Below are positions 1,582 through 4,500 of a stretch of 64,000 bases of DNA, piece by piece (the stretch's first letter is position 1; each line of letters opens with the position of its first letter). This DNA is from Stylophora pistillata. Taxonomy: Eukaryota. The DNA is taken from NCBI RefSeq assembly GCF_002571385.2, contig NW_019218027.1, positions 40,072 through 104,071 on the forward strand, read 5' to 3'. The notes below the pieces were generated by a model that saw nothing but the letters and a program-made list of their open reading frames with translations, made no database searches and was not told where the DNA came from. The position numbers were made by a program, and so were the translations under genes.

Positions 1582-4500
1582 TCATGTTCTGCGATTTCTT
1601 GATGCTGACTTGGAATGAGTTACAGGAGTCAAGGAAAAGACAGTTGAGTGTACGAGGGTGTTAAAAGGTTAACTCACTTCATGAATAAAGCTCACAGAAC
1701 GAGGCGTTCGAGTAAAGAAACCTCCCCTTCTTGAATCAGAAATTGATTAAGGTTTAACTCAAAGTCCAAGTGGCCTTAACTCGGCGACGGTGCTGATCCA
1801 GTTTCTGTAGCATGCATCGACTTTGAGTATTGTTATTTCCTCTCAATTAGAGGCTGGTTTCTCGCAGGAAACCATACAATGTGCATCTCGTCGGATAGCA
1901 TTTATGCTCCTTATGTGCAGAGAGGTACACCGAGACCAAAGAGCAGAGATTCTAAGAGGATTTTAAAAAAAAGTTGTTGGTTATCATTGACGCTACAAAG
2001 CCTTCGCGAGAGAGGAAAGTTATGTTTTGTTTTTTAATAAATTAATTTTTTTTAAAGGATATTGTTTTCTTGGCCGTTCCTGTTCTTCCTTGGGTTCGGA
2101 ATCTTTGACTTCAAGGTGACGGGACTCTTTCTACAAAGTAAACAAACCACCACAATACATAATCTGTACAATACAATAGAATACAATACAATAGAATGCA
2201 ATACAATACAATATTCTTTATTTAACAAACCACCACAATACATAATCTGTGCGTTCACAACAGCGTATGAATGGTTTACAATACAATACAATACAATACA
2301 ATATTCTTTATTTAACATACCACCACAATACATAATCTGTGCGTTCACAACAGCGTATGAATACAATACAATACAATATTCTTTATTCAACGAAGGTGAC
2401 GCAATTAACCCAGTGAGTTATCTAACTTACGGCCTTCACAACAATACAAAATACACATATAAAACAATTGAGACGAGCAAGATAAACCGCGATACAAAAG
2501 AAAGAACATGAAAAGGTTGCGCCATAATCTCTAGCCTCCCAGATGTAAGTGGAATTTATGTGCGCCTAAATTCTTACAACTAACTTTTCTGAGTTTGGTT
2601 CGCAGTCCTAAACAGAATTGCTAGTCATGTTTATGCGCATACCTTTTTACTCGCGGCTGGTTTGGCTTCCTTCTCTTTTATCCGTTCTTTATCTTTTTCT
2701 TTATCTTTCGCTTTTTCCTTCTCCTTTTTTCCAGGTGGTGAACCGTCTGCTGTTTCTTTTCTTGCAATTTTTAGCACTTTTGGTTTCTCCTAAGACCCAA
2801 GCGAAAGGATTGAAAAATGTTCAAAACCATAGAAACGTCCGTTAACAATACAACTGAAAGCTGTAGGAAACCTCGTCCAAAATTCTTCCACTTCATTCAC
2901 GGTCCCTAAGCTAGAAAACTCTGAAAAGGGCTTAAGCTCGACACATCAGCTTTAGAAACTCTTTACGGTGGCCAATTTACATTATCAACTCAGTTAATAA
3001 AACCAAATTATCTTGTAAACCCCGTATCGACGCTGCACCACGGTTCCTTAGAAACTTATCCCCTATACTGGAACATGATATTGCGTGACCGATCTTCACA
3101 CAAGGCGCAACGCCCGTCACGTGACGATAGAACACTTCTTACCTCGCCCTTCACTTTGACTTTTGTGTCTGATCCGTGAGAATTGGATATCTTGGATACA
3201 GTCACGGTATTTTCTCCGTCTTCTTTCCTCCTTTTGGCTTCTTTCCCTTCTCCTTGTTCTAACGAAGTCTGCATTAAGTAAGAACCGATGGTCATCGATT
3301 AGATACAATTCGTCAGCAAACTACACATCTAATATCTAAACTCGTGGCCAGCTTATCACCAAAACAGAAGATGATAGTACTGCGTGCGCCGTTCATCAAA
3401 TGGCTTAGGTTTGTGACCGATATAACGCGCGCTCTGATTGACTAAGACCGAGATCAAAGCAGGGCATAGCCTCACTTAATGACCACGGGGCGATTAAGCC
3501 GCAAATCAGGAAGAATACAAAAATATAGCTAGCGGTTTAAATCTAGATGAGAGATTGCTGAGCGCAGTTCCTGTTCCCTTTCTCCCACTGATTTCTGAGT
3601 GCGATCGTGCCCTTTCAATAATCGTTCCCCTAAGGCTTGACGATTAAACAACTTAATAGTCAACAGCTACACAACCTACCCGTTTTCTGTCCGATTTTGA
3701 GGTCTTTTCCTTTTCGTGTTCCATCAGTTTTGATTTCCGTTCCTGATTATCAGGACTCTAAGGAGAATAAGCAAAAAACGAGTTAATTTGTACGCGTATC
3801 TAAAACCCTTTCCCATCTTTTCGTTAAGTACTCATTTTCAGTTCCGTATCGGTTATTGTTAGCGCGTCTTTAGCTTTAGTTTTGAATATGATTAGTTGAG
3901 AAAGTAGTGCTACTTTTCTAGATCAGCGAAGTAAATTTAACAAAACCAATACAATCCTAGTTTACTTTGGCACTAAATTGAGAATTGCTATATTTGCTAT
4001 ATTTCTTTGTGGCGATCAACAATGGTAAAAGTCCTCGGAAAATACGTTTTATGACCATATACTTTTCTCAGTAAACGTAAAGCTTGACGGTAAAAAGTTA
4101 ACACTCTCCTGGAATGAGTCGGGGGAGCGAAACACCGACACACCACTACAACATTGGGTGTCCTGTGCTCTGTAACTACTTTTAAAATTTCTCTGCAAAG
4201 TTTTGAGGATAAAAAAAATCACCTTAAATGGCTCAGAATCACCAGCAAACTGCGAGGGAGAGTTCTCCTGAAAAACAATATTGAAATATCTCACAACATA
4301 TCTCCTCTGCAATTATGTGCATTCAAAGGAAAAAGGGCGGAACAGAGTTCAATTTTAAGTATTATAAACTGAATCAAATAGATCAGTTTACATTACTAAA
4401 AAGGAATATTTTATTGAAAATTCACTAGACTTATCTGAATACAGAGCAACTAAATACGAGATCAGATCATTGACAACCAAACCTGTGAAGACGGCGAAGA

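What the first reader, a model, noticed from the sequence alone, without database searches (positions are those of the whole stretch)
1619..2062. AT-AC minor intron as the last THOC2 intron, apparently at the same position as in vertebrates
Seen: a consensus ATATCCTTT donor, TTCCTTGAC branch site and AC acceptor. Splicing gives ..[14 protein letters not shown]. From memory, human THOC2 ends ..KKHHKSSDKHR and is a known U12-intron gene with a minor intron near its 3' end. If so, the intron is retained inside an otherwise unalignable low-complexity tail, which implies selection on the intron itself. Retention reads through to an alternative end (..[16 protein letters not shown]), so minor-spliceosome activity could switch both C-terminus and 3'UTR. 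GT-AG-only gene finders will mis-annotate this end.
Basis: partly seen in the sequence, partly recalled or inferred. Interest (0 to 1): 0.7.

Follow-up and report, generated by a model that had tools for sequence, protein, structure and literature searches.

The report
Ancient minor intron ending coral THOC2
The last intron of this coral's THOC2 mRNA-export gene is a real, efficiently removed intron of the rare "minor" class that likely descends from the same ancestral intron already known in human and mouse THOC2, and the proposed switch of the protein's end by keeping the intron is not supported.

Summary
Confirmed. Window 2062-1619 (minus strand) is a 444-nt AT-AC intron with a U12 donor and branch site. 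It is the last of 46 THOC2 introns. The exact junction appears in 7 of 7 RNA-type runs from 6 studies (126 and 96 raw reads in two of them) and not in a DNA-like run. The genome has U11, U12, U4atac and U6atac. The intron splits the first His of K-H|H in phase 2, as the published human AT-AC intron 37 does, and mouse has the same 12-nt donor context. A second minor intron (GT-AG, 16059-15378) also seems shared with mammals. The switch idea fails: retention is about 1-6%, no transcript ends were listed in the intron, and read-through tails of other animals share only the donor-encoded QYP. Persistence needs no special selection, because AT-AC introns rarely convert. RefSeq already models this end correctly; a submitter's model gets it wrong. 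This scan reported the same intron before in an arthropod. Side point: the coral's only U6atac is the published, unexplained "CC variant", which pairs poorly with this donor, yet splicing is efficient.

The parts
1619..2062 (-). U12-type AT-AC intron, intron 46 of 46 of THOC2, phase 2 inside His1624
   Evidence: junction reads and contigs
2054..2062 (-). U12 donor ATATCCTTT; pairs with the 5' end of this genome's U11 (6 bp, -5.2 kcal/mol)
1628..1638 (-). branch site TTTTCCTTGAC, branch A predicted at 1629; complementary to this genome's U12 branch-pairing region
1619..1620 (-). AC acceptor
2063..2130 (-). penultimate exon (KESRH...ERPRK plus two bases of His)
1208..1618 (-). last exon: 11 codons after the split His, stop TGA at 1584-1582, 3' UTR without a further intron, AATAAA at 1230-1225; main 3' end near 1208-1240; contigs of X1 and X14 reach further (to about 965)
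2020..2062 (-). read-through frame if the intron is kept ([17 protein letters not shown] at 2022-2020); not shown to be translated
15378..16059 (-). second minor-type intron of THOC2 (GT-AG subtype: GTATCCTAA ... TTTTTTCCTTAAC ... AG), intron 18, phase 1 after Ala618, inside the Thoc2 domain
   Evidence: the spliced junction is present in Logan-derived proteins; no reads were laid on it
1582..24929 (-). THOC2 coding region, 47 exons, 1635 aa, equal to XP_022795862.1 (named Stylophora pistillata by NCBI)

Best explanation
This is an efficiently spliced AT-AC intron with U12-type signals, likely removed by the minor spliceosome and likely inherited from the cnidarian-bilaterian ancestor together with human THOC2 intron 37. 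Steps: U11 would pair with donor bases +4 to +9 and U12 with the branch site (pairing computed, not shown in cells). The intron is removed from about 94-99% of transcripts in the runs with usable depth (shown), which gives the short basic tail [12 protein letters not shown]. It likely persists in a drifting tail because introns are rarely deleted in these lineages and an AT-AC intron is hard to convert. A first step from AT to GT would send splicing to the next AG, 10 nt into the coral exon and out of frame, as a +1A>G variant does in a human patient (inferred for the coral). The few percent of retained RNA is most likely unfinished or slowly spliced pre-mRNA, not a second isoform.
For: Junction in 7 of 7 RNA-type runs from 6 studies, absent from DNA-like X16. 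U12, U11, U6atac and U4atac are over the Rfam cut-offs in G000. Human c.4754+1A>G is an AT-AC U12 donor of exon 37 with p.His1586Profs*14 in a 1593-aa protein (PMC12547740); by arithmetic that is phase 2 of codon 1585, the first His of the vertebrate ending KKHHKSSDKHR. The mouse donor ACAATATCCTTT is identical to the coral's 12-mer, and human and mouse THOC2 each have two minor introns, as the coral does (PMC6717393 supplements). Of 120 homologues, 54 end in the spliced [KR][KR]HH form and 20 in the read-through [QE]YP form. The latter include Acropora cervicornis, lamprey, two tunicates and tetrapods; a fish and a barnacle show it too. Background is 1 [QE]YP in 32,825 tail residues. Read-through tails run 3-56 residues and share nothing past YP[FLV] between distant groups. 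AT-AC introns convert less often (5 of 79 conversions; PMC2831892). 91-94% of human minor introns are kept in zebrafish and chicken, and neutral processes may explain most patterns (PMC10639083).
Against: Around the intron, coral and vertebrates share only 1 of 10 residues upstream and 2 of 8 (lamprey 3 of 9) downstream besides the split His. That is below the 40%-in-10 rule of PMC10639083, so orthology rests on phase, subtype, split codon, position before the stop and donor context, not on a solid alignment. No genomic DNA of another animal was read here; evidence from other species is published tables and protein ends. The intron is retained more than its GT-AG neighbours (2.8% in X23 and 3.5-5.8% in X24, against 0 in 9 of 10 clean neighbour bins). 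In the shallow run X2 the intron contig (depth 5.6) outweighs the spliced one (2.55). The genome's single U6atac pairs poorly with the donor (-2.0 against -6.4 kcal/mol for an AAG-type copy). Dependence on the minor spliceosome was not tested.
Confidence: 0.87

Rival explanations
1. Regulated switch: minor-spliceosome activity sets how much THOC2 mRNA keeps the last intron, which swaps the last 12 residues for 14 lysine-rich ones and lengthens the 3' UTR. In the coral no junction lies downstream, so the retained RNA would escape nonsense-mediated decay.
For: Retention is above that of neighbouring introns. The coral's 3' UTR has no intron (contigs). The mammalian intron is alternatively spliced: alternative 3' splice site use changes on RBM41 loss (PMC11039992), a CAT7 event is listed for human and one retention value of 0.24 for mouse (PMC6717393 supplements). 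Loss of exons 37-38 harms mice and patients (PMC10853216). Minor introns are usually 5'-biased (PMC2426677), so a conserved terminal one is atypical.
Against: Retention is 1.4-5.8% in 6 of 7 RNA-type runs; the seventh is too shallow to read. No clustered transcript ends were listed in the intron (table 6; 2 rows were not shown). Read-through tails differ in length and sequence, even between two corals (14 against 56 residues). A last intron is also over-represented in poly(A) libraries. In mouse a downstream exon likely exists (the RT-PCR product survives deletion of exons 37-38), so the outcome of retention would differ between lineages.
Confidence: 0.08
2. Independent origin: the coral and vertebrate introns arose separately near the stop codon and only look homologous in a low-complexity tail.
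For: Local identity is very low. Sponge, echinoderm, hemichordate and mollusc ends gave no read-through signature.
Against: Same subtype, phase and split His codon, and the same 12-nt donor context as mouse. An ESRH-like motif opens the preceding exon region in coral and jawed vertebrates. The donor signature is also seen in tunicates and a barnacle. Minor introns are under 0.5% of introns. A missing signature in correct gene models says nothing.
Confidence: 0.03
3. AT-AC intron removed by the major spliceosome, which would explain why a poorly pairing U6atac does not matter.
For: The genome's U6atac box is GCCGA, not AAGGA. U2-type AT-AC introns exist (PMC2831892).
Against: Those introns have G at +5; this one has C5 and C6 and a full U12 branch site. 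U11 and U12 pairing is intact. The human counterpart is U12-type.
Confidence: 0.02

Closest known systems
Human THOC2 intron 37 (NM_001081550.1 c.4754+1; chrX:123610964-123611439, 476 nt) and mouse Thoc2 minor intron (chrX:41802993-41803455, 463 nt)
   Same: AT-AC U12 type, phase 2 in the first His of K-H|H, last coding intron, similar length (444 nt), the same 12-nt donor context as the mouse row, and a second minor intron upstream in the same gene. Matching the listed coordinates to intron 37 is my inference from their 3' position.
   Different: Flanking protein is nearly unalignable. The coral has 11 residues after the split codon, human 8. The coral has no downstream UTR intron; mouse likely has one. 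No alternative acceptor was seen in the coral at 2% or more, whereas mammals use one.
Canonical U12-type AT-AC introns (donor ATATCCTT, branch TCCTTAAC 10-15 nt from the end; PMC2426677)
   Same: Donor, branch position and termini match. All four minor snRNA genes are present.
   Different: The branch reads TCCTTGAC (G-U wobble with U12). The position is at the far 3' end of the gene, while minor introns are 5'-biased.
'CC variant' U6atac of cnidarians, Trichoplax, sponge, Acanthamoeba, Physarum, moss and oomycetes (PMC2396436)
   Same: This genome's single U6atac has GCCGA in place of AAGGA; 26 of 32 metagenome loci have the same GCC triplet.
   Different: That paper noted the poor pairing as hard to explain. 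Here a canonical donor is shown by reads to be spliced at about 95% or more in a genome whose only copy found is the CC form.

Membership tests
U12-type (minor) intron, AT-AC subtype | donor ATATCCTT | tested here: met
   ATATCCTTT at 2062-2054
U12-type (minor) intron, AT-AC subtype | branch TCCTTRAC about 10-15 nt before the 3' end, no long pyrimidine tract after it | tested here: met
   TTTTCCTTGAC at 1638-1628; branch A is the 11th base from the end
U12-type (minor) intron, AT-AC subtype | exact removal between AT and AC in RNA | tested here: met
   7 of 7 RNA-type runs; none in DNA-like X16
U12-type (minor) intron, AT-AC subtype | minor snRNA genes in the genome | tested here: met
   U12 97 bits, U11 87.9 and 83, U6atac 108.6, U4atac 63.4
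U12-type (minor) intron, AT-AC subtype | U11-donor and U12-branch complementarity | tested here: met
   duplexes of -5.2 and -11.8 kcal/mol (the latter includes 3 extra flanking pairs)
U12-type (minor) intron, AT-AC subtype | U6atac AAGGA box pairs with donor +4 to +8 | tested here: not met
   the box is GCCGA, duplex -2.0 kcal/mol. This is a lineage-wide trait of the snRNA (PMC2396436), not of this intron, so it does not count against the intron's class
U12-type (minor) intron, AT-AC subtype | splicing depends on U11/U12/U6atac | not testable with these tools
   needs knock-down
Orthologue of human THOC2 intron 37 | gene is the THOC2 orthologue | tested here: met
   1631 bits to human THOC2 chains; Pfam THOC2_N, Thoc2, Tho2
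Orthologue of human THOC2 intron 37 | same phase, split codon and subtype | tested here: met
   phase 2 in His; human c.4754 and His1586; vertebrate ends. The human C-terminus itself was not displayed; close mammalian ends stood in
Orthologue of human THOC2 intron 37 | 40% or more identity over 10 residues on each side (rule of PMC10639083) | tested here: inconclusive
   1 of 10 upstream and 2 of 8 downstream against jawed vertebrates. This is an alignment-quality filter: failing it means the standard test cannot be applied here
Orthologue of human THOC2 intron 37 | intron present in genomic DNA of intermediate lineages | tested here: inconclusive
   indirect only: read-through ends in A. cervicornis, lamprey, tunicates, fish and barnacle; no genomic DNA read; plant tail unalignable
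Regulated intron-retention switch | substantial or condition-dependent retention | tested here: inconclusive
   1.4-5.8% in 6 runs; growth conditions unknown; no stress series
Regulated intron-retention switch | conserved alternative product | tested here: not met
   read-through tails of 3-56 residues, alike only in the donor-encoded start

The most novel reading that the evidence does not exclude
THOC2 has kept a terminal minor intron since the cnidarian-bilaterian ancestor as a dial on mRNA export. When minor splicing slows, for example in heat stress, the coral makes a decay-proof THOC2 mRNA with another basic tail and a longer 3' UTR. It does so with a U6atac that cannot read donor bases +6 to +8, which could make the coral's minor spliceosome tunable in a way the human one is not.
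Probability: 0.07. Interest if true: 0.6.

Novelty: new member of a known kind. Interest (0 to 1): 0.2.

Why it matters
It extends a known, clinically relevant human minor intron to cnidarians, at a site that alignment-filtered intron surveys would drop. It shows that protein ends in xYP[FLV] are a quick marker of this missed intron in gene models (20 of 120 here). It also offers a clean test case for an old loose end: cnidarian U6atac lacks the bases thought to read the minor donor, yet a textbook donor is spliced efficiently. None of this is a new mechanism.

Tried and rejected
(1) Motif rarity as proof: rejected, 14% by chance per window. (2) Alternative acceptors or cryptic donors in the coral: none listed at 2% or more in raw reads or in contigs; two reads joined with three other letters at 2063-2065 are read as a substitution. 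(3) Intronic polyadenylation: there is an ATTAAA at 2038, but intron depth is even along the intron and no ends were listed there. (4) An intronless copy as the source of the junction: not seen in X16 (contigs show presence, not absence). (5) Plant position: the Amborella THO2 tail cannot be aligned, and its EYPL lies 80 residues inside normal isoforms. PMC12956336 says Thoc2 is a minor-intron gene in plants, but which intron is meant is unknown; its supplement could not be read and may already list cnidarian orthologues. (6) U6atac GCCGA as an assembly error, pseudogene or new finding: rejected; it is single-copy, 26 of 32 metagenome loci share it, and it was published in 2008. (7) Depth bins 2200-2499 and 2900-3099 were left out of the neighbour comparison: the tool skipped repeats at 2162-2313, and the other bins carry repeat reads from elsewhere. 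(8) The first two tallies of protein ends used patterns that were too tight; one search is the corrected count. (9) No structure or complex prediction was run; the tail is low-complexity and no binding claim is made.

Full report
Observation. On the minus strand, 2062-1619 is a 444-nt intron that begins ATATCCTTT and ends TTTTCCTTGACTCCTGTAAC. The branch A at 1629 is the 11th base from the end. Splicing gives [14 protein letters not shown]; read-through gives [16 protein letters not shown]. Such a donor-branch-AC pair arises in 14% of 200 simulated windows, so the motif alone is only suggestive.

RNA evidence. Eight of the 24 listed runs were laid. The joint 1618/2063 has 126 reads in X23 and 96 in X24 (about 2% of each run was read). 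The three upstream GT-AG junctions have 111-127 and 77-133 reads. The joint is also in contigs of X1, X7, X2, X14 and X18, so 7 of 7 RNA-type runs from 6 studies show it; X7 is RNA by guess and X18 has no kind on record. X16, with flat depth over exon and intron, matches 1150-2161 letter for letter without a joint. Retention is low. Intron over exon depth is 2.8% in X23 and 3.5% (sense) to 5.8% (both directions) in X24; rough contig ratios are 1.4, 1.7, 1.6 and 3.2%. Against this reading, X2 has more intron than junction depth (5.6 against 2.55), but it is very shallow and may hold DNA or pre-mRNA. Clean bins of the neighbouring introns (2500-2599, 2800-2899, 3300-3599) read 0 in 9 of 10 cases, so this intron is kept somewhat more often. 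Slower minor splicing and the 3' bias of poly(A) libraries both predict that (established knowledge; the first is discussed in PMC6717393, passages). The last exon runs unbroken to about 1208, with AATAAA at 1230-1225.

The gene. The window encodes, in 47 exons from 24929 to 1582, the 1635-aa protein XP_022795862.1 that NCBI names Stylophora pistillata THOC2. It scores 1631 bits against human THOC2. That RefSeq model already has the spliced end. The submitter's model PFX22285.1 lacks both the true end and the junction at residue 618-619.

Machinery. U12, U11 (two loci), U6atac and U4atac pass the Rfam cut-offs in G000. U11 pairs with donor bases +4 to +9, and U12 with the branch region. The single U6atac has GCCGA where the Rfam consensus has AAGGA and pairs weakly with the donor (-2.0 against -6.4 kcal/mol). 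Of 32 metagenome loci, 26 have GCC, 4 AAG, 1 GAC and 1 ACC (the script's count of 28 includes L005 and L006). PMC2396436 (passages) described this 'CC variant' in cnidarians and other lineages and called it difficult to explain. It was the only paper holding both 'U6atac' and 'CC variant'.

Position. PMC12547740 (passages) reports the human AT-AC U12 donor at c.4754+1, exon 37 of 38, in a 1593-aa protein. The +1A>G variant moves splicing to a downstream AG and gives p.His1586Profs*14. Base 4754 is the second base of codon 1585, and vertebrate proteins end KKHHKSSDKHR, so the human intron splits the first His in phase 2, as here. Supplement rows of PMC6717393 list two minor introns each in human and mouse THOC2. 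The mouse donor context ACAATATCCTTT is identical to the coral's. The human row CCTGTATCCTTT fits the coral's internal intron (CTT|GTATCC, phase 1 between Ala and Tyr of the conserved DVLAYC); that match is inferred. Gene models that miss the intron read into the donor and end in [QE]YP. Of 120 homologues, 20 do so, 54 have the spliced HH end, 5 an echinoderm/hemichordate end, 2 an end two residues shorter, and 39 are partial or end otherwise. The read-through form occurs in Acropora cervicornis, lamprey, Phallusia, Clavelina and tetrapods, and in Danionella and the barnacle Amphibalanus. The background is 1 in 32,825 residues. These counts are of related sequences, not independent events. The tail is indeed hard to align: 17-20% identity to vertebrates, 1 of 10 residues upstream and 2-3 of 8-9 downstream of the intron. 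Orthology therefore rests on phase, subtype, codon, position and donor context.

Mechanism and the switch idea. Constitutive removal explains the data. Long persistence does not imply a regulatory role: 91-94% of human minor introns are kept in zebrafish and chicken, and minor and major introns are deleted at similar rates (PMC10639083, passages). AT-AC introns are under-represented among conversions (PMC2831892, passages). In the coral the first AG after the acceptor is 10 nt downstream and out of frame, so the first step to GT-AG would likely damage the tail, as in the patient; the tail region matters in mouse (PMC10853216, passages). Read-through tails differ in length and sequence, even between corals, so a conserved alternative end is not met. 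What keeps the switch alive at low odds: no junction lies downstream in the coral, the mammalian intron shows alternative 3' splice sites (PMC11039992 and its preprint, passages), a terminal position is atypical (PMC2426677, first third of the text), and no stress series was tested.

Novelty. I found no paper stating the cnidarian position: searches, seen as listings with abstract starts; PMC2831892 has no mention of THOC2. The supplement of PMC12956336 (passages only) and online intron databases were not seen and may list it. Verdict: a real, well-supported, ordinary member of a known class; interest 0.2.

Noticed in passing
window 15378-16059 (-): Second minor-type intron of THOC2 (GT-AG subtype, phase 1 after Ala618). 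It likely matches the second human/mouse THOC2 minor intron; the submitter's gene model also gets this junction wrong.
   Followed up: partly
L005:1501-1628 (G000:C133:450103-450230): The only U6atac found has the GCCGA 'CC variant' box, which pairs poorly with canonical minor donors; known since 2008 and unexplained. One metagenome locus reads GAC (L011) and one ACC (L015) at that triplet.
   Followed up: yes
window 121-193 and 368-440 (-): Two tRNA-Thr(AGT) genes inside a tandem unit of about 245 bp just downstream of THOC2; the array may continue past the window edge.
   Followed up: no
window 34103-46369 (-): A single open frame of about 4,090 codons without introns encodes 33 cadherin stretches plus EGF and laminin G domains (Fat-like cadherin): a 12-kb exon beside an intron-dense gene.
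   Followed up: partly
window 1796-1829: A short piece inside the minor intron matches contigs from another place in runs X16 and X2: likely a fragment of a dispersed repeat.
   Followed up: no
window 965-1208 (-): Contigs of X14 and X1 extend the 3' UTR about 250 nt past the main end: possibly a second polyadenylation site.
   Followed up: no
window 1589-1618 joined to 2063-2161: One low-depth X2 contig has the minor intron removed while it still runs into the upstream GT-AG intron, so the minor intron is not always the last to go.
   Followed up: no
proteins P0097, P0099: Jerboa and tree shrew THOC2 models end KKQSSDKHR / KKQSLDKHR, two residues shorter, as an acceptor 6 nt downstream would give; perhaps the alternative 3' splice site reported in mammals.
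   Followed up: no
proteins P0025, P0033: Tunicate THOC2 models, including a RefSeq one, end in EYPF..., the donor read-through form; in tunicates retention or loss of the last exon might be the norm.
   Followed up: no
L003:1050-1133: A tRNA gene lies about 370 nt from one U11 gene.
   Followed up: no
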